The notes beneath the pieces were generated by a model. That model had not been told where the DNA came from and did not search any database. It worked only from the letters and a program-made list of their open reading frames with translations. From Gammaproteobacteria bacterium (GTDB lineage Bacteria > Pseudomonadota > Gammaproteobacteria > UBA4575): 64,000 nt of DNA. The position numbers were made by a program, and so were the translations under genes. Below are positions 252 through 9,798 of this stretch, one piece after another (position 1 is the stretch's first letter; every line of letters starts with the position of its first letter). The stretch lies in NCBI GenBank assembly GCA_965243395.1, contig CBDEUS010000001.1:1184001-1248000 (forward strand). The letters run 5' to 3'.

Positions 252-1049
252 TCACGCACAAGCCTCAATGGCTGAACTCAGCGCATTGCGTATATCATGG
301 TCATCTGTAATAGGTAATACTAATGCAACTTCACAAGCTTCTTCTAAAGACACTCCCTGTGATATAAGTTGCGCAGCATAAATTAGCATTCTAGTCGATG
401 CTCCTTCATCTAAACCATGACCTTTCAAATTTCTAGAGCGATCTGATATTTGTACTAACTTCCTAGCTATATCAACATTGATTCCTGATTCATGTGCAAT
501 AATTTTTGCCTCTTCATCTGCTTTAGGATAATTAAAATCAATCGCACCAAACCTTTGTTTTGTAGACTCTTTCAAATCTTTCAAGACACTTTGATATCCG
601 GGGTTATAAGAAATCACAATTTGAAAATCTTGATTTGCTTTTACAACCTCATTTTTTTTCTCCAATGACAACATGCGACGGTCATCTGTTAATGAGTGTA
701 TAACAACACTCGTATCCTGCCTTGCCTCAACAATCTCATCTAAATAACAAATTGCTCCGTATCGTACTGCAAGTGTTAGAGGGCCATCGTGCCAAACTGT
801 TCCTTCAGCATCGAGGAGATAACGACCTACCAAGTCAGAGGCAGTCATGTCTTCATGACAAGAAACTGTGATAAGCGGTTTTTTTAACTTCCATGCCATA
901 TATTCAACAAAGCGTGTTTTTCCGCAACCTGTTGGTCCTTTTAGCATCATTGGCATCCTAGTCGCGTAGGCTGCTTCAAACAATTGAATCTCATTATGGG
1001 TGGGAGAGTAATAAGGTTCTTCAGTAATGAAGTAACTATCGAGATTCAT
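252..1049 (-). CDS. CbbQ/NirQ/NorQ-family MoxR-type AAA+ ATPase
   Basis: N-terminal EPYY motif, Walker A GPTGCGKT, Walker B CYLDEIVEARQD, SYNPGYQS..KDLKESTKQRF and GLDEGASTRMLIYAA are all hallmark CbbQ/NorQ motifs. Confidence 0.93.
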   Translation of the reverse strand: MNLDSYFITEEPYYSPTHNEIQLFEAAYATRMPMMLKGPTGCGKTRFVEYMAWKLKKPLITVSCHEDMTASDLVGRYLLDAEGTVWHDGPLTLAVRYGAICYLDEIVEARQDTSVVIHSLTDDRRMLSLEKKNEVVKANQDFQIVISYNPGYQSVLKDLKESTKQRFGAIDFNYPKADEEAKIIAHESGINVDIARKLVQISDRSRNLKGHGLDEGASTRMLIYAAQLISQGVSLEEACEVALVLPITDDHDIRNALSSAIEACA

Positions 1050-1123: not shown

Positions 1124-2158
1124 TTAACGATGAGTTTTAGGGTTAGGTATTCCTTCAATCTCACACTCTTCAGTACCAACAGTTGTGCGCGTAATAGACT
1201 CAACCATTTCGCGTGTTGCATCTGGATCTGTAATCCATTTTTTGTAAAAGTCATATGGACATTCTGCAACACCTTGATCACCTTCACCAGAGTTAATTTT
1301 ACCGGTGTAACCTCTATGAAGAAGTTTAAATAAGTGATTTTGTGATTGTTGATTTTTACGTGCATCCCGAATGAGTGAAGTCGACAAGTTTGCATACTGA
1401 ACGCCCATGTCTTCCTCTGCACAAGCACCAAGTGTGCGTCCATCGAATCCAATTATTGAAGAATAACCAAAATATGAATACACACCATCAAATCCTGTTG
1501 CATTTGCAACAGCAACATAACAGTTGTTCATCCATGCCATTGCTTTGGCTACCATAATTTGCTGATCTTTCGATGGATACATATAGCCTTGACAACGTAC
1601 GATTAACTCTGCACCTTTCATTGCACAATCACGCCATATTTCAGGATAGTTTCCGTCATCACAAATGATTAGACTTATCTTTAAGCCTTTAGGACCATCT
1701 GAAACATAAGTGCAATTACCAGGATACCAACCTTCAATAGGTACCCAAGGCATAATTTTGCGATACTTTTGCACGATCTCTCCTTGATCATTCATCAAAA
1801 TTAAAGTGTTGTATGGCGCTTTGTTTGGATGATCTTCATGGCGTTCGCCGGTCAATGAAAATACACCCCAAACTTTTGCATTACGACATGCTTCTGCAAA
1901 AATTTCAGTTTCTTCACCTGGACATGTTGATGCAGTTTCATACATCTCTTTCTCATCATACATAATTCCATGAGTGCTATATTCAGGAAAAATTACCAGA
2001 TCCATTCCAGGTAAACCTACTTTCATACCTTCAATCATGCTTGCAATATTGCGCGCATTATCGAGCACTTCGGCTTTAGTATGCAGTCTTGGCATTTTGT
2101 AATTTACAACTGCAACGCCGACGGCATCTTTACTACTTGATATATCACCGTGATACAT
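1124..2158 (-). CDS. amiE: Aliphatic amidase (nitrilase superfamily)
   Basis: [23 protein letters not shown]-terminus and catalytic triad motifs [23 protein letters not shown] are characteristic of AmiE. GGAGG RBS present. Confidence 0.97.
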
Positions 2159-2268
2159 ATTTCATCCTCCTCGTCAGTCATTACCTAAAAACTGACATTT
2201 TTATAAAAATTAATTTCAAACCAGTTTGAATCTTTACCAAAATAGGTAAATTTTTTACTCACACGCAC

Positions 2269-2344
2269 AAAAAAAGCCCTCTAGGGAAAATTCCTAGAGG
2301 GCTTTTTTGCCCAAAACTTTCTGCAGAAGCGTTATTGGTTCTGC
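2269..2344 (-). promoter_or_regulatory. ANTAR-type dual-hexaloop leader overlapping an intrinsic terminator, upstream of amiE
   Basis: Minus strand: GCAGAA-C-C[AATAAC]G-C-TTCTGC (P1), linker, GGGC[AAAAAA]GCCC (P2). The 3' arm of P2 is the 5' arm of the terminator GCCCTCTAGG..CCTAGAGGGC-T7. Adjacent to amiR. Confidence 0.88.
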
Positions 2345-2381
2345 TGAATAATTCAATTAATACTAGCGATGTGTTAAGTGC

Positions 2382-2410
2382 TTTTTAGACCAATTCTTAG
2401 CAAACGTCAA
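2382..2410 (-). promoter_or_regulatory. Candidate sigma70 promoter for amiE
   Basis: TTGACG-N17-TAAAAA on the minus strand; predicted start about 30 nt before P1. Confidence 0.5.
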
Positions 2411-2463
2411 GAACTTCGTTAAATCCATTTAAAACGTATAGGTATAAAATTAACTTAAGTTCT

Positions 2464-3066
2464 TCATTCAACATTCACTTCTAAAGTTTTATCCGCAGCA
2501 ACTATTTCTTGTGCAACATCTTCCGTAGTTAAACGACGCTCCATGGCTTTAGACCTAATAAATTCATACGCTTGTTCGCGACTAATGTTATTTGCCCTTT
2601 CAAGTATCGCTATTGCATGCTCAACAGCATGAATATTTCTAATTTTCGTCTCGAGCTTTTGTACCCTAGAACCAAGTATTAATTCTTTACGCCAATGTGT
2701 TCTCGCGATCACCATATTGGCTAATAGGCCAAAAGGTCGAACAGGTGTATTCAGTATTGCATGTGCGCCCAATTCATACGCAGTTTGTAATACGGTCGGA
2801 TTTTCGTAATCAACTATAGCTATGATTGTTGGACTGTTTTTATCATCTGCTAACCATGTAGGCTTTTCAACAAATGGGTGATCTTGCAAAGTCTGCAAAA
2901 AAACTACATCGGTGTTCGATTTAATACGTTTGGGGCAAGGCCATACCATTCGCACCGAGCAACCAATACGTTCTATATGCTGACATATATCACTACCCTG
3001 CTCGTTATTAGGATGAACAACTAATATCCTAAGCTTGCGTAGATCTTTTAATATCTCAATCGCCAT
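2464..3066 (-). CDS. amiR: AmiR-type ANTAR antiterminator (pseudo-receiver plus ANTAR domain)
   Basis: AmiR-like N-terminus (LRKLRILVVHP..IGCSVRMVWP; IIAIVDYENPTVL) and C-terminal ANTAR (AYEFIRSKAMERR..VAQEI). Lies 2 nt downstream of amiC. Confidence 0.9.
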   Translation of the reverse strand: MAIEILKDLRKLRILVVHPNNEQGSDICQHIERIGCSVRMVWPCPKRIKSNTDVVFLQTLQDHPFVEKPTWLADDKNSPTIIAIVDYENPTVLQTAYELGAHAILNTPVRPFGLLANMVIARTHWRKELILGSRVQKLETKIRNIHAVEHAIAILERANNISREQAYEFIRSKAMERRLTTEDVAQEIVAADKTLEVNVE

Positions 3067-3068
3067 AT

Positions 3069-4235
3069 TTAACTCAGTTCGCTTTCAAAATATTTCATAC
3101 GACTCAAGCTCTTGTCCGAACCAAGATCAACGAGATATGGATCAGGTTTAACTGGACCATCTGTTTCTGCAACGATTTGGAATTGTCCTGATTTATTTAC
3201 TCGACCAATTTTTGGCCAAAGAAATGTGTGGTTGTTATCAGGATCAATTTGAATAGAACCTTGTGGCGCATCAAATATTGTGCCTAGTGTTGCTGTGCGG
3301 ACAATTTCTGTATCCAATGTGCCTACTCGACGTAACACATCTGCAAAAAGGTGGACTTGAAAATAAGCTGCTTCTGCACAAGCATTAGTACGCAATCTAT
3401 TGCCAAACATTGCTTTATATTTTTTGACAAATTTATAATTTGAAGGTGTTTGTACAGATTCAAAATAGGGTGCTGCAGTAATATGACCCTCCCCTACTTC
3501 CTCTCCCATCGCACTCACTTCTGCTTCACTTGTAGTTAGGCTAGCAATAGGCATTTGCTTTGGTTGCAAACCCGCATTCCAATAACTTTTATAAAATTTA
3601 CTTGTTGCAGACCCTACAATAGTACTGAAAATGACATTGGGTCGTTTTTCTAATATATCAACCAAAATTGGGTCAATATCATTTTTAGTTGCATCTAATG
3701 GAAGATATTTTTCTGCAACAACTTTGCCACCAGCTGAATTCAAAATATCCTTCATAATGCGATTTGACTCATAAGGATAAATATAATTTGAGCCTATAAA
3801 ATAAAATCGATTTCCATATTGATTCAATAAATATCGTGCCAAAAACATACTGTTTTGGTTGGGTGCTGCACCTGTATAAATTACATTTTTTGAATATTCA
3901 AAGCCTTCATAAAGTGTCGGATACCATAAAAGTCCATTATGGTTCTCAACAATCGGTAGCACAGCTTTGCGCGTGCTCGACATATAGCACCCAAAGATTA
4001 TGTTTGCTGAATCTTTTGTAATTAAACGATTTGCTAATCGTCGAAAGTTTTCAGGATTAGACTGGGGATCATAATAAATGGGTTTGATATTTCTACCATT
4101 AACACCCCCATTTGAATTAATTTCACGAATTGCTAATAAGGTAGCATTAAGTTGTGTTTTTTCTATTACAGATGTAACACCTGTTTTAGAAAATAAAATT
4201 CCAACTTTCCAAGAAGATTTGACCACATCAAACAC
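3069..4235 (-). CDS. amiC: AmiC-type cytoplasmic amide sensor (periplasmic-binding-protein fold, no signal peptide)
   Basis: VGILFSKTGVT, IFGCYMSSTRKAVLP, LWYPTLYEGFEYS, YTGAAPNQNS, YIYPYESNRIM; GTG start; coupled to amiR. Confidence 0.9.
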   Translation of the reverse strand: MFDVVKSSWKVGILFSKTGVTSVIEKTQLNATLLAIREINSNGGVNGRNIKPIYYDPQSNPENFRRLANRLITKDSANIIFGCYMSSTRKAVLPIVENHNGLLWYPTLYEGFEYSKNVIYTGAAPNQNSMFLARYLLNQYGNRFYFIGSNYIYPYESNRIMKDILNSAGGKVVAEKYLPLDATKNDIDPILVDILEKRPNVIFSTIVGSATSKFYKSYWNAGLQPKQMPIASLTTSEAEVSAMGEEVGEGHITAAPYFESVQTPSNYKFVKKYKAMFGNRLRTNACAEAAYFQVHLFADVLRRVGTLDTEIVRTATLGTIFDAPQGSIQIDPDNNHTFLWPKIGRVNKSGQFQIVAETDGPVKPDPYLVDLGSDKSLSRMKYFESELS

Positions 4236-4642
4236 CTCAGGTTACGGGTTGTAATTATTCTATGTGGTATTTAATTAATAAATATTACCTTACGTAACTG
4301 CTTATTTTGAACTAAATTACAAAGTCTCGTCTATGTTTTTAATAATATTTAGGATGATGTAATAACAAATTAATTTTTCTAATCACCACCCAAGCAATTA
4401 ATTTATGATGCTGAGCATGTTCTAATAGTGCAAAAACTAATGACATCTATTGGAAAATGTAATATTCAAGCTATTTCAATATCTAGGAAATAATTTTTCT
4501 TTGAATTTAGTCTTCACGAATATCACTACTTGGTAGTTTTAAAATTGCTTGCTTTTAAATTTATTTCGATGAATAATCTATTTTTATAGACACACTAAAA
4601 TATACTGCTGAAATACTTTAGAATTAATCATTAGCAGTAAAA

Positions 4643-4723
4643 ATAACGAAACCAACAGTGCTTTCGTTATCAGATTTGGCAAAAAAGCCCTCTAGAAACT
4701 AAGGTTTTCTAGGGGGCTTTTTT
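4643..4723 (+). promoter_or_regulatory. ANTAR-type dual-hexaloop/terminator unit 1 in the ABC transporter leader
   Basis: ATAACGAAA-C-C[AACAGT]G-C-TTTCGTTAT (P1, 4643-4670); GGC[AAAAAA]GCC (P2, 4678-4689) overlapping terminator GCCCTCTAGAAA..TTTCTAGGGGGC-T6. Confidence 0.88.
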
Positions 4724-4740
4724 GTTTGTGTAATATTTTT

Positions 4741-4814
4741 CTAACAAAACCAAAAACGCTTTTGTTAGCTGTAGGCAATAACGCCTCTAAAGAATTTTCT
4801 TTAGAGGTTTTTTT
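4741..4814 (+). promoter_or_regulatory. ANTAR-type dual-hexaloop/terminator unit 2 in the ABC transporter leader
   Basis: CTAACAAAA-C-C[AAAAAC]G-C-TTTTGTTAG (P1, 4741-4768); AGGC[AATAAC]GCCT (P2, 4773-4786) overlapping terminator CCTCTAAAGA-ATTT-TCTTTAGAGG-T7. Confidence 0.88.
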
Positions 4815-4889
4815 ATGCCAATTAAAAATAAATAAACATTTAAACAAACTTACTTAAGTACATATCAGTCAAGTTCAGGAGGCTTTCAA

Positions 4890-6194
4890 ATGAATCGACG
4901 CAAATTTCTAAAAAAATCTGCTGTCGTAGCGGGAACTGCAGCCGCAGCTACGATCTCTGACTTTCCTTACTTTTTCACAAGAAATTATGCGAAAGCAGCA
5001 GCAGGAGATACTATAAAAATTGGTATCCTGCATTCACTAAGTGGAACTATTGCGATTATTGAACGTTCACTGCATAACGCAGAGTTGTTAGCCATTGATG
5101 AAATCAATGCGGCTGGCGGTGTTATGGGTAAACAATTAGAGCCTGTAATTGAAGACCCACAATCCCTCGTTCAGGTATTCGCAGAAAAAGCGAAGAAACT
5201 TATTCTTGAAGATGAAGTTGTAGCTGTATTAGGTTGTTATACATCTGCGAGTCGTCAATCGGTTTTACCAGTATTTGAGCAACATAATAATGTTCTCTTA
5301 TATCCAACCCTTTACGAGGCACAGGAATGCAGTAAAAACTGTTTCTACACTGGCTGCGTTCCAAATCAGCAACTAGATGATTTTGTTCCATGGCTAATTG
5401 AAAATGTTGGACCTAAGTTTTATATGCTTGGGTCGAATTATATCTATCCAAAAGAAACCAATCGTGAAGTGAAAGCTTTGCTTAAAGCTCATGGTGGTGA
5501 GGATGTTGGAGAAGAATATGCGCCTCTTGGTCATACAGAATTTTCTACTAACATTAACAAAATTGCTTCTAAACAACCTGATGTCGTGTTCTCCGATCTT
5601 GTGGGTGACTCAGTTGTGGCTTTCTACAAACAATTCCGTCAGTTTGGACTAACTGCAGACGATATGATAATTGCCACACCCATTACTACCGAACAAGAGA
5701 CTGCGGCAATGGGACCAGAAAATGCATTAGGTCACTTAACTTCATTCAACTATTTCCAATCAGTTGATACACCAGAAAACAATAAGTTTGTTGAAGCTTA
5801 TAAAGCGAAATATGGTAAAAACGAAGTTACCAATGCAGTGATGGAAGCGGCTTATTTTCAAACACATATGCTTGCGCAAGCAATTGAAAAGGCGGGCTCA
5901 ACAGAAGCCGATGCATTAATTTTTGAAGGTTTACCTGGTCAAGAATTTACTGCTCCAGGTGGAAAAGTCAAAATTGATGAGAAAAATCATCACACGTGGC
6001 TATGGCCGAAAATTGGACGTGCTAATGAACAAGGCCAATTTGACATCATATGGCAACGTGATGATTGGGTGCGCCCTGATCCATGGGTAGACCTATTGTA
6101 TCCAAATAAGGATTGCGATTTTACTAATCCAAGTGTTCTCGAACGATTGAAGTCTGGTGATCCAGATCGTTCAGGAACATTCGATATAAGTTAG
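4890..6194 (+). CDS. Amide/urea ABC transporter substrate-binding protein (UrtA/FmdD-like) with Tat signal
   Basis: Twin-arginine motif NRRKFLK; IKIGILHSLSGT, GCYTSASRQSVLPVFE, YPTLYE; AGGAGG RBS. Confidence 0.9.
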   Translation: MNRRKFLKKSAVVAGTAAAATISDFPYFFTRNYAKAAAGDTIKIGILHSLSGTIAIIERSLHNAELLAIDEINAAGGVMGKQLEPVIEDPQSLVQVFAEKAKKLILEDEVVAVLGCYTSASRQSVLPVFEQHNNVLLYPTLYEAQECSKNCFYTGCVPNQQLDDFVPWLIENVGPKFYMLGSNYIYPKETNREVKALLKAHGGEDVGEEYAPLGHTEFSTNINKIASKQPDVVFSDLVGDSVVAFYKQFRQFGLTADDMIIATPITTEQETAAMGPENALGHLTSFNYFQSVDTPENNKFVEAYKAKYGKNEVTNAVMEAAYFQTHMLAQAIEKAGSTEADALIFEGLPGQEFTAPGGKVKIDEKNHHTWLWPKIGRANEQGQFDIIWQRDDWVRPDPWVDLLYPNKDCDFTNPSVLERLKSGDPDRSGTFDIS

Positions 6195-6214
6195 GTCAGC
6201 ATCATGTGTAAAAA

Positions 6215-6240
6215 GGTGGTAGTAATTTTTTACTACCACC
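6215..6240. other. Perfect 11-bp intergenic hairpin after the SBP gene
   Basis: GGTGGTAGTAA-TTTT-TTACTACCACC. No U-tract on +, but A5 precedes it (U-tract on -). Probably stabilises the SBP mRNA segment. Confidence 0.7.
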
Positions 6241-6284
6241 CCTTCTAACCTACGTGCCATTTTCTATAAAAAGAAAAATTTGAA

Positions 6285-7154
6285 ATGGAAGCAATCATCA
6301 CTCAATTTCTAAGTGGATTCAGTGTAGTAGCAATTTTAATTATTGCGGCTGTAGGTCTAGCCATAATCTTCGGTGTTGCCGGTGTCATAAACATGGCACA
6401 TGGCGAGTTCATTATGGTTGGTGCCTACACAGCAGCTGTTGTTGGGCAACTCGGTGGTAATACCTTTATTGCTATTCCAGTTGCGTTTGTAGTTGTTGCT
6501 TTACTTGGATTAATTGTAGAGCGATCTGTCATTCAGTGGATTTACGATCGACCGTTGGAAACGTTACTTGCTACCTGGGGTGTTGGGATCATTTTACAAG
6601 TGGTAATGAAATTAATATTTGGCCCAGAGCTATATTATGTTGGTGCACCGAAAATTCTTGACGGTGGCTTTCGAGTTATTGGCTTACTTCCTTTCCCATG
6701 GTACCGATTATTTTTAATCATACTTGCAATTGCACTAATGATAATTACATACCTGGTTATGTTCAAAACTGATTTAGGTTTAAAAGTTAGAGCAGTACGA
6801 AGAAACAGAACCATGTCAGGATGTTTAGGTATCGATACCGCAAGAGTCGATATGATTATTTTTGCGTTTGGCTCTGGATTAGCCGGAGTAGCAGGCGCAG
6901 CACTAGCCCCTATCAAGTCAGTTTCAACCACTATGGGTTTCCCCTACGCAGTGGATTCATTCATGGTTTTAGTGTTAGGAGGTGTTGGAAATCTTTGGGG
7001 TGTGGTTGCAGGTTCATTTTTAATAGGGGAAGCAGAAACGATATTGTCATTTATTTATAACAATGTAATTGGAAAACTTTTAGTTTTCATTTTTATAGTT
7101 TTAGCTATACGTGTATTCCCTAGGGGATTATTTGGGTATCACGAACGAACTTAA
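6285..7154 (+). CDS. ABC transporter permease (UrtB/LivH-like)
   Basis: GLAIIFG..GVINMAHGEFIMVGAY, RPLETLLATWG, FGSGLAGVAG; multiple TM segments. Confidence 0.92.
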   Translation: MEAIITQFLSGFSVVAILIIAAVGLAIIFGVAGVINMAHGEFIMVGAYTAAVVGQLGGNTFIAIPVAFVVVALLGLIVERSVIQWIYDRPLETLLATWGVGIILQVVMKLIFGPELYYVGAPKILDGGFRVIGLLPFPWYRLFLIILAIALMIITYLVMFKTDLGLKVRAVRRNRTMSGCLGIDTARVDMIIFAFGSGLAGVAGAALAPIKSVSTTMGFPYAVDSFMVLVLGGVGNLWGVVAGSFLIGEAETILSFIYNNVIGKLLVFIFIVLAIRVFPRGLFGYHERT

Positions 7155-7166
7155 CAAAAGGAACTA

Positions 7167-8330
7167 TTGAGAAGTGTAGCAATGGTGAATGAAAGAAGTA
7201 TAAATAAAGCACCAATGTTTCCATTACTATCTGTTGTAGTCGCAACAGCTATTGTGCTTGCTATTGCAACATATCCTATGTATGGAGCCGAGTATGTTAC
7301 ATCTTTATTAGGAAAGTTCTTATGCTATGCAATTTTTGCATTAAGTCTAGATTTGATTTGGGGTTTCACTGGAATTTTAAGCTTAGGACAAGCAGTTTAT
7401 TTTGGTATCGGGGCCTATTCAGTCGCACTGTCTCTTAAAATAGATTACGCCTCTACACACCCTACACGTTACGGAGGCACGATCCCTGATTTTATGGAAT
7501 GGAATGGCCTCACTGAGTTGCCAAATTTCATGGCGCCATTGCAAAATTTACCTTTTGCAGTATTTGTTGGCTTAGCATTCGCTACATTTATTGCATTTAT
7601 ATTTGGTGTAATCACATTTAAACGTCACATTTATGGTGTGTATTGTGCAGTAATCACGCTCGCTGAATCTCTCATCCTGCAAGAAGCCATAATTGAATAT
7701 CAGGCCTACACCGGAGGATTCAATGGCATCACAGATTATGGAACACACGCTACTAAATTCTATCTTTGGTTTATTTTAGCTGTAACCATCTTCTTCTTCG
7801 CACTCGGAAGAGTTTTAACTCATTCACGCGTCGGAACAGTATTAAAGTCTATTCGAGATAATGACGTGCGCGCAGAATTTATGGGTTATAACGTTGCCAA
7901 CTATCGAATTTTTGTTTACTGCTTATCAAGCTTTATGGCGGCTAGTGCGGGCGCTATGTATGCAGCGTGGAACGGTATCATATCATTCTTAGATGCGGGG
8001 CCTATATTTTCTATTGAAGCTGTAATTTGGACTGCAGTTGGTGGACGCGGGACTATCATTGGTCCATTCATAGGAGCCTTCTTAGTGAAGGGCTCAGAAT
8101 TTTTCTTAAGTGGAAAACTTGCATGGACTTGGCAACTCATTATGGGTGGTTTGTTTATATTTGTAGTTCTTGTTATGCGAGATGGAATTGTAGGAACAAT
8201 TGGAAAATGGTGGGCGGCAAGAAAAAAACATGCATCTATCAAAGGCACAGTTGCTGAATCAGATGCTACTGCATCTGATCGACAAAAAGACTGGCAACCT
8301 GGACAATCGAAAGGACCTGATGAAATTTAA
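7167..8330 (+). CDS. ABC transporter permease (UrtC/LivM-like); start may be the ATG at 7182
   Basis: GKFLCYAIFALSLDLIWGFTGILSLGQ, PDFMEWNG, TGGFNGIT, IRDND.R..FMGY, AVGGRGT. Confidence 0.92.
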   Translation: MRSVAMVNERSINKAPMFPLLSVVVATAIVLAIATYPMYGAEYVTSLLGKFLCYAIFALSLDLIWGFTGILSLGQAVYFGIGAYSVALSLKIDYASTHPTRYGGTIPDFMEWNGLTELPNFMAPLQNLPFAVFVGLAFATFIAFIFGVITFKRHIYGVYCAVITLAESLILQEAIIEYQAYTGGFNGITDYGTHATKFYLWFILAVTIFFFALGRVLTHSRVGTVLKSIRDNDVRAEFMGYNVANYRIFVYCLSSFMAASAGAMYAAWNGIISFLDAGPIFSIEAVIWTAVGGRGTIIGPFIGAFLVKGSEFFLSGKLAWTWQLIMGGLFIFVVLVMRDGIVGTIGKWWAARKKHASIKGTVAESDATASDRQKDWQPGQSKGPDEI

Positions 8331-8358
8331 CAAATAAACTTTTTCATAAAAATTATCA

Positions 8359-9099
8359 ATGACAAACATTCTAGAAGTACAAGGACTCACCACTGAAGTA
8401 AGTGGTTATACAATTCTCGATAACCTGGATTTTAGTATCGAAGAAAATGAGTTACGTGTAGTACTCGGACCCAATGGCGCAGGAAAAACGACGTTGATCG
8501 ATATGATAACTGGTCGTTATAAACCAAAATCTGGAAAAATAATTTTTGACGGTGAAAACATTACCAATAATCCACCTGATAAAATTTTTGTCAAAGGTAT
8601 TAGCCGAAAATTTCAAGTCCCAAATTTATACGAGACATTATCTGTGTACGATAACATCATGGTTTCTTTAAAAGGACGTCGTAAAGTTTTTAAATCATTA
8701 TTTGGAAAAGTAACTAAAAAAGACAATGAAAGAATTTGGGAAATATTAGATTTCATAATGTTGGCAAACAAAGCCGAAGACAGTGTAGATACCCTGGGTC
8801 ATGGGCAAAGACAATGGCTGGAGCTCGGAATGCTTATTGCAGCAGAACCAAAGTTACTGTTATTAGACGAACCAACTACTGGCATGACCGCTGATGGTAA
8901 AGAAAAAACGGCTGAACTCATTCAGAAAATTGCAGAAAACCACGCTGTCATGTTAGTTGAACATGATATGGACATCGTTCGAAAAATTGCGAAAAACGTA
9001 ACTGTGCTTGCACAAGGTCAAACATTAGCAGAAGGTCCGCTTGCTGAAGTAGTAGAAAATGAACAAGTAAAAGCAGTTTATTTAGGTAAAGGACACTAA
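8359..9099 (+). CDS. ABC transporter ATP-binding protein (UrtD-like)
   Basis: Walker A GPNGAGKT, RKFQVP, LGHGQRQWLELGM, LLLLDEP, VEHDM. Confidence 0.93.
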   Translation: MTNILEVQGLTTEVSGYTILDNLDFSIEENELRVVLGPNGAGKTTLIDMITGRYKPKSGKIIFDGENITNNPPDKIFVKGISRKFQVPNLYETLSVYDNIMVSLKGRRKVFKSLFGKVTKKDNERIWEILDFIMLANKAEDSVDTLGHGQRQWLELGMLIAAEPKLLLLDEPTTGMTADGKEKTAELIQKIAENHAVMLVEHDMDIVRKIAKNVTVLAQGQTLAEGPLAEVVENEQVKAVYLGKGH

Positions 9100-9798
9100 A
9101 TGAGCTTGGAATTACAAAACATAGATACTTTTTACGGCACGAGCCATATTTTACATGGTGTATCTTTGAATATACCTGAAGGTGCAATGGTAAGTATTTT
9201 GGGCAGAAATGGAGTTGGAAAATCAACTTTACTGAAAAGTATTACAGGAATTAACCCTCCCCAAAATGGCTCGATCCTTTTTAATAATAATGAAATTACT
9301 AACCAAAAAACACATGAGCGTACTCATTCAGGAATAAGTTATGTACCCCAGGGAAGAGAAATTATTCCTGACATATCGATTTATGAAAATTTATTGGTTG
9401 CCATGCGTGGCAAAAAAAATAAAAGCAAAGCAATACCCAATTTTATTTTTGAATATTTCCCGGCCTTAGAACCTATCCAAAAACGCAAAGGTGGTGTTCT
9501 TAGCGGTGGACAGCAGCAACAATTGGCCATTGCACGAGCATTGGTACAAGAACCTAATCTATTATTATTAGATGAACCTACAGAAGGTCTTCAGCCTTCT
9601 GTTGTAGAAGAAATTGACGACATCATAAAACGCATTCATGCGGAAAGAAATTGCTCTATTCTCTTAGTTGAACAAAATTTGGATTTTGTTAGAGACGTTA
9701 CGCAACATTTTGCCATTATGGATCATGGGCAAATTGTTGAAGAAGGAGAAATTGAAAAACTATCAGATCAGCTTGCTAGCCAATACTTATCTGTATAA
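9100..9798 (+). CDS. ABC transporter ATP-binding protein (UrtE-like)
   Basis: GRNGVGKS, YVPQGREI, LSGGQQQQLAIARAL, LDEPTEGLQPS. Confidence 0.93.
   Translation: MSLELQNIDTFYGTSHILHGVSLNIPEGAMVSILGRNGVGKSTLLKSITGINPPQNGSILFNNNEITNQKTHERTHSGISYVPQGREIIPDISIYENLLVAMRGKKNKSKAIPNFIFEYFPALEPIQKRKGGVLSGGQQQQLAIARALVQEPNLLLLDEPTEGLQPSVVEEIDDIIKRIHAERNCSILLVEQNLDFVRDVTQHFAIMDHGQIVEEGEIEKLSDQLASQYLSV

What the first reader, a model, noticed from the sequence alone, without database searches (positions are those of the whole stretch)
2269..4814. Re-coded ANTAR RNA motif: all six hexaloops have A4 instead of the canonical G4, and every P1 has a C.C mismatch
Seen: three leaders share one architecture: long stem, C.C mismatch, C-G pair, hexaloop (P1); short linker; GGC-hexaloop-GCC (P2) overlapping a terminator. 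The loops are AATAAC/AAAAAA (amiE), AACAGT/AAAAAA and AAAAAC/AATAAC (transporter), giving consensus AANANN. The P1 stems differ in sequence but keep their pairing, which is covariation. Established: ANTAR targets of EutV, NasR and AmiR are dual hexaloops with conserved A1 and G4. Inference: this is a variant recognition code that standard ANTAR RNA models may miss and that could be insulated from other ANTAR proteins in the cell.
Basis: partly seen in the sequence, partly recalled or inferred. Interest (0 to 1): 0.85.

Follow-up and report, generated by a model that had tools for sequence, protein, structure and literature searches.

The report
AmiR antiterminator leaders with A4 loops
Three RNA leaders that switch on an amide-utilisation gene cluster look like classic ANTAR antiterminator targets, except that the guanine normally read by the protein is an adenine, and the regulator protein next to them has changed at the matching contact residues.

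Summary
Three leaders (one before amiE, two in tandem before a Urt-like ABC transporter) flank amiC-amiR. Each has a P1 hairpin (Y.C mismatch, C-G closing pair, hexaloop), a short linker, and GGC-hexaloop-GCC overlapping an intrinsic terminator.

A covariance model finds only these three in the 2.58-Mb genome: 56-68 bits, next best 14 bits.

In relatives I found 24 distinct leaders. Loop position 1 is A in 48 of 48 loops; position 4 is A in 47 of 48 and never G. P1 shows compensatory changes in 6 of 9 pairs.

AmiR of this clade has I/V and R/H where EutV's G4 contacts K149 and E160 lie. Of 22 other AmiR_N proteins, 19 keep E.

Leaders of those E-type AmiRs have G4 in 13 of 16 loops and A4 in 3.

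So this is a lineage-wide variant of the ANTAR RNA-protein pair, probably a co-evolved specificity shift. Binding is untested.

The C.C mismatch is not part of the re-coding: one G4-type amiE leader also has it. The insulation idea is not supported.

The parts
252..1049 (-). AAA ATPase (AAA_5 + CbbQ_C), in the amiB position downstream of amiE
   Evidence: Pfam
1124..2158 (-). amiE, aliphatic amidase
   Evidence: CN_hydrolase; NCBIfam NF009802 aliphatic amidase, 714 bits against a cut-off of 427
2269..2302 (-). Intrinsic terminator of the amiE leader: stem 2302-2276 and U-tract 2275-2269. Its first three bases are the 3' arm of P2.
2299..2312 (-). P2 of the amiE leader: (G)GGC-AAAAAA-GCC(C), with loop L2 at 2308-2303
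   Evidence: GGC/GCC is invariant in 19 of 20 leaders
2321..2346 (-). P1 of the amiE leader: C.C mismatch (2338/2329), C-G closing pair (2337/2330), loop L1 AAUAAC at 2336-2331
2464..3066 (-). amiR: AmiR_N pseudo-receiver plus ANTAR domain. It has I152 and R163 at the positions of EutV K149 and E160; Y167 and M175 are kept.
   Evidence: Pfam; PDB alignments; alignments
3069..4235 (-). amiC-like cytoplasmic ligand sensor (Peripla_BP_5)
4643..4723 (+). Transporter leader 1: P1 4643-4670 (L1 AACAGU 4654-4659), P2 4678-4689 (L2 AAAAAA 4681-4686), terminator 4687-4717 and U-tract 4718-4723
4741..4815 (+). Transporter leader 2: P1 4741-4768 (L1 AAAAAC 4752-4757), P2 4774-4785 (L2 AAUAAC 4777-4782), terminator 4783-4808 and U-tract to 4815
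4890..9798 (+). Urt-like ABC transporter operon: UrtA-like binding protein (below the UrtA cut-off), UrtB, UrtC, UrtD-like and UrtE

Best explanation
The three elements are AmiR-dependent transcription attenuators of the ANTAR dual-hexaloop kind.

Without inducer, AmiC holds AmiR. Each leader then folds into its strong intrinsic terminator, and transcription stops before amiE-amiB or, twice in series, before the Urt-like transporter operon.

With an amide bound to AmiC, the AmiR dimer binds the P1 and P2 hexaloops. It holds the weak GGC/GCC P2 hairpin. P2's 3' arm is then unavailable for the terminator stem, and RNA polymerase reads through.

What differs from the textbook system is the read-out. 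In this clade of uncultured gammaproteobacteria every loop carries A at position 4, the base that in EutV flips out and stacks on Tyr164. The two AmiR residues aligned with EutV's G4 hydrogen-bond partners have changed from Lys/Glu to Ile(Val)/Arg(His).

I read this as a co-evolved shift of base preference from G to A in the same binding pocket.

Shown here: the anatomy, its uniqueness in the genome, its conservation, covariation in P1, the gene context, and the protein substitutions.

Inferred, not shown: AmiR binding, antitermination, and that R/H163 reads the adenine.
For: Anatomy and overlap of P2 with the terminator.

Gene context: amiC-amiR-leader-amiE-amiB and a divergent transporter.

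Specificity: only 3 R1 hits in the genome, at 56-68 bits, with the next at 14.4 bits. R1 hits occur in 10 of 41 related genomes. Nine of those ten also have an AmiR orthologue; the tenth, G019, has none.

Conservation: 20 leaders in 11 genomes plus 4 new metagenome leaders give A1 in 48 of 48 loops, A4 in 47 of 48 and G4 in 0 of 48. Positions 3 and 6 vary freely.

P1 covariation: 6 of 9 pairs.

Canonical rule and its chemistry: G4 stacks on Tyr164 and bonds to Arg142, Lys149 and Glu160. E160A and Y164A cost 60- and 55-fold in affinity (PMC8934654, sections 21-22).

The ungapped alignment puts I152 and R163 of this AmiR at K149 and E160. P. aeruginosa AmiR, Rv1626 and EutV all have K and E there.

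Within the clade these positions are I/V and R/H.

Outside the clade:
- 19 of 22 AmiR_N proteins have E, 2 have D and 1 has A.
- Of the 150 best cluster representatives, 91 have E.
- I/V together with R/H occurs in only 3 representatives, and 2 of those belong to this clade.

E-type AmiRs with identifiable leaders (8 leaders) have G4 in 13 of 16 loops, and at least one G4 loop in every leader.

The clade is one branch (SH-aLRT 100, stem 0.84) among E-type proteins in a quick tree.
Against: No binding or expression data exist; no RNA run holds the locus.

P2 never varies, so it has conservation but no covariation.

The loops are A-rich overall: position 2 is A in 38 of 40 loops and position 5 in 34 of 40. 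Position 4 therefore does not stand out as sharply as in canonical motifs. The genome is 38-39% G+C.

A4 occurs in 3 of 16 loops of E-type leaders, so E-type AmiRs may tolerate A4.

I/V at position 152 is not special to this clade: V occurs in 9 and T in 3 of the 22 other AmiR_N proteins. Only R/H163 is distinctive.

Residue roles are transferred from EutV by sequence alignment alone.

The leaders counted are related sequences, not independent events.
Confidence: 0.62

Rival explanations
1. Relaxed specificity plus A+T drift. AmiR-type ANTAR domains do not need G at position 4, the loops drifted to A in a low-G+C genome, and the E-to-R/H change is incidental. The leaders are still AmiR targets, but there is no new code.
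For: A4 is present in 3 of 16 loops of leaders beside E-type AmiRs. The loops are A-rich at positions 2 and 5 as well. The genome is 38-39% G+C. A third AmiR subfamily has loops in which position 4 varies, so position 4 is not universally read.
Against: There are 0 G4 in 48 loops across two sub-clades whose AmiRs are only 57-60% identical, while positions 3 and 6 vary. Every E-type leader keeps at least one G4 loop. The one residue that is unique to the clade, position 163, is a base-specific G4 contact whose loss costs EutV 60-fold in affinity.
Confidence: 0.27
2. The elements are ordinary intrinsic terminators with an unrelated upstream hairpin, or an attenuator driven by something other than AmiR, such as a leader peptide or the second ANTAR protein.
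For: Rfam gives only sub-threshold resemblance to leader-peptide attenuators (His_leader 38.3 bits against a gathering score of 49). L2 AAAAAA can also pair with the U-tract in the minimum-energy fold. G019 carries a leader-like element although no ANTAR gene was found in its genome.
Against: The elements occur only at the ami locus in the genome. They co-occur with amiR in 9 of the 10 genomes that have R1 hits. GGC-N6-GCC is kept even where L2 is not an A-tract (AAUAAC, AGCAAC, AACAAC, AACAAG). The architecture matches the ANTAR definition in every feature but G4. The G019 copy has a broken closing pair, which fits decay after loss of the regulator. The Rfam hits come from the terminator part only.
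Confidence: 0.06
3. The variant code evolved to insulate AmiR from a second ANTAR system in the same cell.
For: The window's genome has a second ANTAR protein, a 207-aa ORF about 55 kb away.
Against: G001 has the A4 code and only one ANTAR gene. The second protein has I, S, F and R at the K149, E160, Y164 and M172 positions, so it is not a canonical G4 reader either. No convincing canonical G4/G4 leader was seen in the genome by a loose descriptor scan.
Confidence: 0.05

Closest known systems
ANTAR-target dual-hexaloop RNA (EutV/eutP, NasR/nasF, AmiR/amiE; Ramesh et al. 2012, PMC3369931; Walshe et al. 2022, PMC8934654)
   Same: Two hairpins with hexaloops, a short linker, the P2 3' arm shared with an intrinsic terminator, A at loop position 1, and an ANTAR protein gene alongside.
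   Different: Position 4 is A, not G, in 47 of 48 loops. P1 has a conserved Y.C mismatch under the closing C-G pair. P2 is an invariant GGC/GCC.
Pseudomonas aeruginosa AmiC/AmiR amidase operon (PDB 1QO0)
   Same: AmiR_N pseudo-receiver plus ANTAR regulator, an AmiC-like Peripla_BP_5 sensor, an aliphatic amidase AmiE, and an AAA ATPase after amiE.
   Different: The gene order here is amiC-amiR-leader-amiE-amiB, with a divergent Urt-like transporter under two further leaders. This AmiR gives a modest match to 1QO0 (84.7 bits). It carries I152/R163 where P. aeruginosa AmiR has K/E. The P. aeruginosa leader is stated to have A1/G4 loops (text of PMC3369931). I did not see its sequence.
AmiR_N loci with E-type ANTAR domains found here (G306, G545, G692, G475, G700)
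   Same: Leaders directly after amiR or before amiE or the transporter. Tandem double leaders before the transporter occur in G692 and G475. G700 P1 has a C.C mismatch.
   Different: Their loops have G4 in 13 of 16 cases, and their AmiRs keep K and E. Model R1 scores none of them.

Membership tests
ANTAR-target dual-hexaloop RNA | Two stem-loops of at least 3 bp, each capped by a hexanucleotide loop | tested here: met
   P1 has 9-10 pairs and P2 has 3-4 pairs
ANTAR-target dual-hexaloop RNA | Linker of about 2-25 nt between the hairpins (criterion in PMC8164766) | tested here: met
   5-15 nt in the 20 aligned leaders
ANTAR-target dual-hexaloop RNA | The second hairpin is mutually exclusive with an intrinsic terminator | tested here: met
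   The GCC of P2 is the start of the terminator 5' arm in all three leaders
ANTAR-target dual-hexaloop RNA | Adenine at loop position 1 | tested here: met
   6 of 6 loops in the window; 48 of 48 in the clade
ANTAR-target dual-hexaloop RNA | Guanine at loop position 4 | tested here: not met
   0 of 6 loops in the window; 0 of 48 in the clade, where 47 are A and 1 is U
ANTAR-target dual-hexaloop RNA | Bound by an ANTAR protein, with antitermination as the result | not testable with these tools
   No RNA-protein modelling or assay is available, and no RNA run holds the locus
AmiC/AmiR amidase regulon | Regulator with AmiR_N pseudo-receiver and ANTAR domain | tested here: met
   PF21332 at 1.2e-37 and PF03861 at 1.3e-10; 1QO0 at 4.7e-23
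AmiC/AmiR amidase regulon | AmiC-like cytoplasmic binding protein and an aliphatic amidase in the cluster | tested here: met
AmiC/AmiR amidase regulon | ANTAR residues that contact G4 in EutV (Lys149 and Glu160 equivalents) are conserved | tested here: not met
   I152/R163 here and I/V with R/H in the clade, against K/E in 1QO0, 6WSH and 1S8N
AmiC/AmiR amidase regulon | Stacking aromatic residue (Tyr164) and loop plug (Met172) equivalents | tested here: met
   Y167 and M175 are invariant in the clade

The most novel reading that the evidence does not exclude
A natural specificity switch in the ANTAR pocket: replacing the Glu that reads the flipped G4 by Arg or His, and the Lys by Ile or Val, turns the domain into an A4 reader.

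The AmiR family as a whole would then speak several mutually unintelligible RNA dialects:
- A1/G4;
- A1/A4, as here;
- an AGG..U hexaloop followed by a GGCU-tetraloop-AGCC hairpin, in the Thr172 subfamily.

If so, searches seeded on A1/G4 systematically miss part of the ANTAR regulon space. The dialects could also serve as orthogonal antitermination parts.
Probability: 0.4. Interest if true: 0.75.

Novelty: new variant of a known kind. Interest (0 to 1): 0.62.

Why it matters
The ANTAR literature I read (passages or sections of PMC3369931, PMC8934654, PMC8164766, PMC10783516, PMC12591593 and bioRxiv 10.1101/660928) treats A1/G4 as the recognition rule and uses it to seed searches.

Here a whole clade keeps the architecture but has no G4 at all. 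Its regulator has changed at the residue whose mutation costs EutV 60-fold in affinity. That gives a ready-made natural experiment on how ANTAR domains read the flipped base: two residues and one nucleotide to swap.

It also offers an explanation for why canonical motifs are sometimes not found beside AmiC/AmiR-like pairs. One preprint says so for a Mesorhizobium amide operon (10.1101/2024.02.22.581678, passage read).

The biology regulated, amide uptake and hydrolysis, is ordinary.

Tried and rejected
Rfam. There are 31 matches at E up to 10 in 2100-4950, all below their gathering scores and all driven by the terminators. Canonical AmiR leaders of L050 give no match at E up to 1. I did not build a canonical model of my own. 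The 8 canonical leaders are too divergent for a MAFFT alignment, and I may not type a hand-made one.

Loose descriptor scan of the whole genome: A1 hexaloop pair plus terminator. It gave 54 candidates with every combination at position 4. It is too unspecific to count on, so I rely on the covariance model instead.

Search for the P. aeruginosa amiE leader itself. Searches with representative P0073 in the families of G400 and G700 found only 30-36% identical proteins. The P. aeruginosa loops are therefore taken from the text of PMC3369931 only. Its Figure S1 and Tables S1/S2 are supplements I could not open. They may hold A4 examples that bear on novelty.

Leaders could not be identified for G171, G400, G155, G116 and several alphaproteobacterial loci. 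These loci are left out of the 8-leader count. L121 leader 2 was read by eye but not recovered by the scan, so I dropped it.

Rows dropped before counts: the reverse-strand echo of the amiE leader (L025 7696-7747; L142 and L143 minus-strand rows), and metagenome rows identical or nearly identical to genomes already counted (L139, L140, L142, L143).

Expression: no RNA holder is listed for the locus, and read laying was not used.

Literature for an A4 precedent: searches found none. That covers only the open-access library searched.

The tree is the quick version with a midpoint root; the careful search did not finish.

I did not run Pfam on the second ANTAR ORF or on its neighbour. 'Receiver-like' is my reading by eye.
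Full report
**Layout.** The left end of the window holds an amide-utilisation cluster.
- On the minus strand: amiC (3069-4235, Peripla_BP_5), then amiR (2464-3066, AmiR_N plus ANTAR), then a 305-base gap.
- After the gap: amiE (1124-2158; NCBIfam aliphatic amidase, 714 bits against a cut-off of 427) and an AAA ATPase (252-1049, AAA_5 plus CbbQ_C).
- On the plus strand, after a 654-base gap: a Urt-like ABC transporter operon (4890-9798). UrtB, UrtC and UrtE pass their cut-offs. The binding protein stays below the UrtA cut-off.
- The relatives named are uncultured Gammaproteobacteria or 'Thiotrichales' genomes assembled from metagenomes. The window's genome is 2.58 Mb with 38-39% G+C.

All three leaders have the anatomy described. 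There is a P1 stem of 9-10 pairs, interrupted next to the loop by a C.C mismatch and closed by one C-G pair. A hexaloop caps it. A 5-9-base linker follows, then GGC-hexaloop-GCC. The GCC opens the 5' arm of a strong terminator with a U-tract.
- The loops are AAUAAC/AAAAAA, AACAGU/AAAAAA and AAAAAC/AAUAAC.
- The folds are far more stable than shuffles, with z-scores of -5.9, -6.7 and -4.0.

**More than chance.** I built covariance model R1 from 15 leaders of the window and relatives.
- In the whole genome it finds the three leaders at 68.4, 63.7 and 56.1 bits. Nothing else scores above 14.4 bits.
- In 41 related genomes it hits 10. Nine of these also have an AmiR orthologue of 57-89% identity.
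- The tenth, G019, has a copy with a broken closing pair and no ANTAR gene in a 99%-complete genome.

**Conservation and covariation.**
- Twenty leaders from 11 genomes, after dropping one reverse-strand echo, give: position 1 A in 40 of 40 loops; position 2 A in 38; position 3 mixed; position 4 A in 39 and U in 1; position 5 A in 34; position 6 mixed.
- The single U is in a decayed copy with a GCU arm and a weak U-tract.
- Four further leaders from metagenome contigs not already represented (L141, L144-L146) add 8 loops, all A1 and A4.
- The total is 24 leaders and 48 loops, with no G at position 4.
- P1 is supported by compensatory change in 6 of 9 pairs.
- P2 is invariant, so it is supported by conservation only. 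GGC and GCC are kept while the linker and the loop change.
- The mismatch is C.C in 16 and U.C in 4 of the 20 leaders.
- These sequences are related, so the counts are not independent events. However, they span two sub-clades whose AmiRs are only 57-60% identical, and three paralogous leaders per genome.

**What is known.** The papers I read state that ANTAR targets are dual hexaloops with A1 and G4, and that this also holds for nasF and P. aeruginosa amiE. I read passages of PMC3369931, PMC8164766, PMC10783516, PMC12591593 and bioRxiv 10.1101/660928, and sections 21, 22 and part of section 26 of PMC8934654.
- G32A and G56A reduce eutP induction and EutV binding.
- In the EutV-RNA crystal, G4 flips out and stacks on Tyr164. 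It is hydrogen-bonded by Arg142, Lys149 and Glu160.
- E160A and Y164A cost 60- and 55-fold in affinity, and M172A abolishes binding.

**The protein has changed at those contacts.** The ANTAR helices align without gaps.
- EutV K149, E160, Y164 and M172 correspond to I152, R163, Y167 and M175 of this AmiR.
- P. aeruginosa AmiR (1QO0), Rv1626 (1S8N) and EutV (6WSH) all have K and E at the first two positions.
- In the clade, position 152 is I or V and position 163 is R or H. Y167 and M175 are invariant.
- Outside the clade, 22 AmiR_N proteins from sampled Pseudomonadota have E (19), D (2) or A (1) at position 163.
- Among the 150 best representatives of a 1.84-billion-protein library, 91 have E at position 163, and the K/E pair occurs in 66. 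I/V with R/H occurs in 3, and 2 of those belong to this clade.
- I/V at position 152 is not distinctive, because V and T are common elsewhere. R/H at position 163 is distinctive.
- A quick tree puts the clade on one long branch (SH-aLRT 100) among E-type proteins (midpoint root, careful search unfinished).

**Controls from other AmiR loci.** Beside E-type AmiRs I could identify 8 leaders: two each in G306, G545 and G692, and one each in G700 and G475.
- Of their 16 loops, 13 have G4 and 3 have A4 (AACAAG, AACAGC, AAUACG).
- Each leader keeps at least one G4 loop.
- R1 finds none of them in 370,053 bases.
- So G4 is the norm but not absolute in this family. The clade studied here is the extreme case, with all loops A4.
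- The G700 amiE leader also has the C.C mismatch under a C-G closing pair, with a G4 loop above it. The mismatch is therefore an older feature of some amiE leaders, not part of the change at position 4.

**Mechanism.** The shown facts fit the standard ANTAR model, in which AmiR, once released from AmiC, holds P1 and P2 so that the terminator cannot form.
- The inferred new step is chemical. A Glu carboxylate accepts hydrogen bonds from the N1-H and N2-H of guanine, whereas Arg or His can donate to the N1, N3 or N7 of adenine. A Lys that would face the O6 of guanine is replaced by an aliphatic side chain.
- This reasoning is mine and is not tested.
- The rival reading, that AmiR-type domains tolerate A4 and the loops drifted in an A+T-rich genome, is kept at about one in four.
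- The insulation idea is weak. G001 has the code without a second ANTAR gene. The second ANTAR protein of this genome is itself atypical.

**Verdict.** This is a real, conserved, lineage-specific variant of a known RNA-protein regulatory pair, with a matching change on the protein side. It is new as far as the searched literature shows. It is directly testable with a few mutants, but no biochemical evidence exists yet.

Noticed in passing
L111, L113, L115-L119 (downstream of amiR; e.g. L116:9201-9322, L113:5505-5626 minus strand): AmiR_N proteins with Thr at the EutV Met172 position and V/T at the K149 position have a different conserved leader. One or two hexaloop hairpins (AGGUUU, AGGGCU, AGGAAU, AGUGUU, AGCGUU) have A1, G2 and U6 conserved, while position 4 varies. 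A GGCU-N4-AGCC tetraloop hairpin follows, and its 3' arm opens the terminator. This looks like a third dialect of AmiR-type leaders.
   Followed up: partly
L081:8070-8121 (G019): A leader-like element (R1 41.5 bits) with a broken closing pair (C.A) sits before a CN_hydrolase and a Urt-like transporter. No ANTAR gene was found in this one-contig, 99%-complete genome. It may be a relic left after loss of amiR.
   Followed up: partly
window 4643-4815; also L120 and L121 downstream of amiR: Two complete leaders in tandem precede the transporter operon here, in L033, G001 and G021. The same is seen in distant E-type AmiR loci of G692 and G475. Serial attenuators look like a conserved design for the transporter.
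   Followed up: partly
window 2255-2268 (minus strand); same place in all amiE leaders of relatives: A conserved box (GUGCGUGUGAG; AUGCGUGUGAG in relatives) directly follows the U-tract of the amiE-leader terminator. A similar GUUUGUGU follows transporter leader 1. Its function is unknown.
   Followed up: no
G000:C1:1130861-1131019 (L030:1432-2055, minus strand), about 55 kb before the window: The genome's second ANTAR protein is 207 aa and lies downstream of a 306-aa ORF. At the EutV K149, E160, Y164 and M172 positions it has I, S, F and R. It is unlikely to read canonical hexaloops, and its targets are unknown.
   Followed up: partly
L110:11490-11560 (G700, minus strand): This amiE leader belongs to an amiE-first operon with an E-type AmiR. 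P1 has the same C.C mismatch with loop AAAGCU, and P2 is GGGC-AACAAG-GCCC. It has one G4 loop and one A4 loop, so it looks like a possible intermediate state.
   Followed up: partly
window 2348-2377 (minus strand): A sigma-70-like match (TTAACA, 18 nt, AATTAT) ends just before P1 of the amiE leader, so amiE may have its own promoter as well as read-through from amiCR. Promoter-like sites are no more frequent here than in shuffles: 7 found against a mean of 11.3.
   Followed up: no
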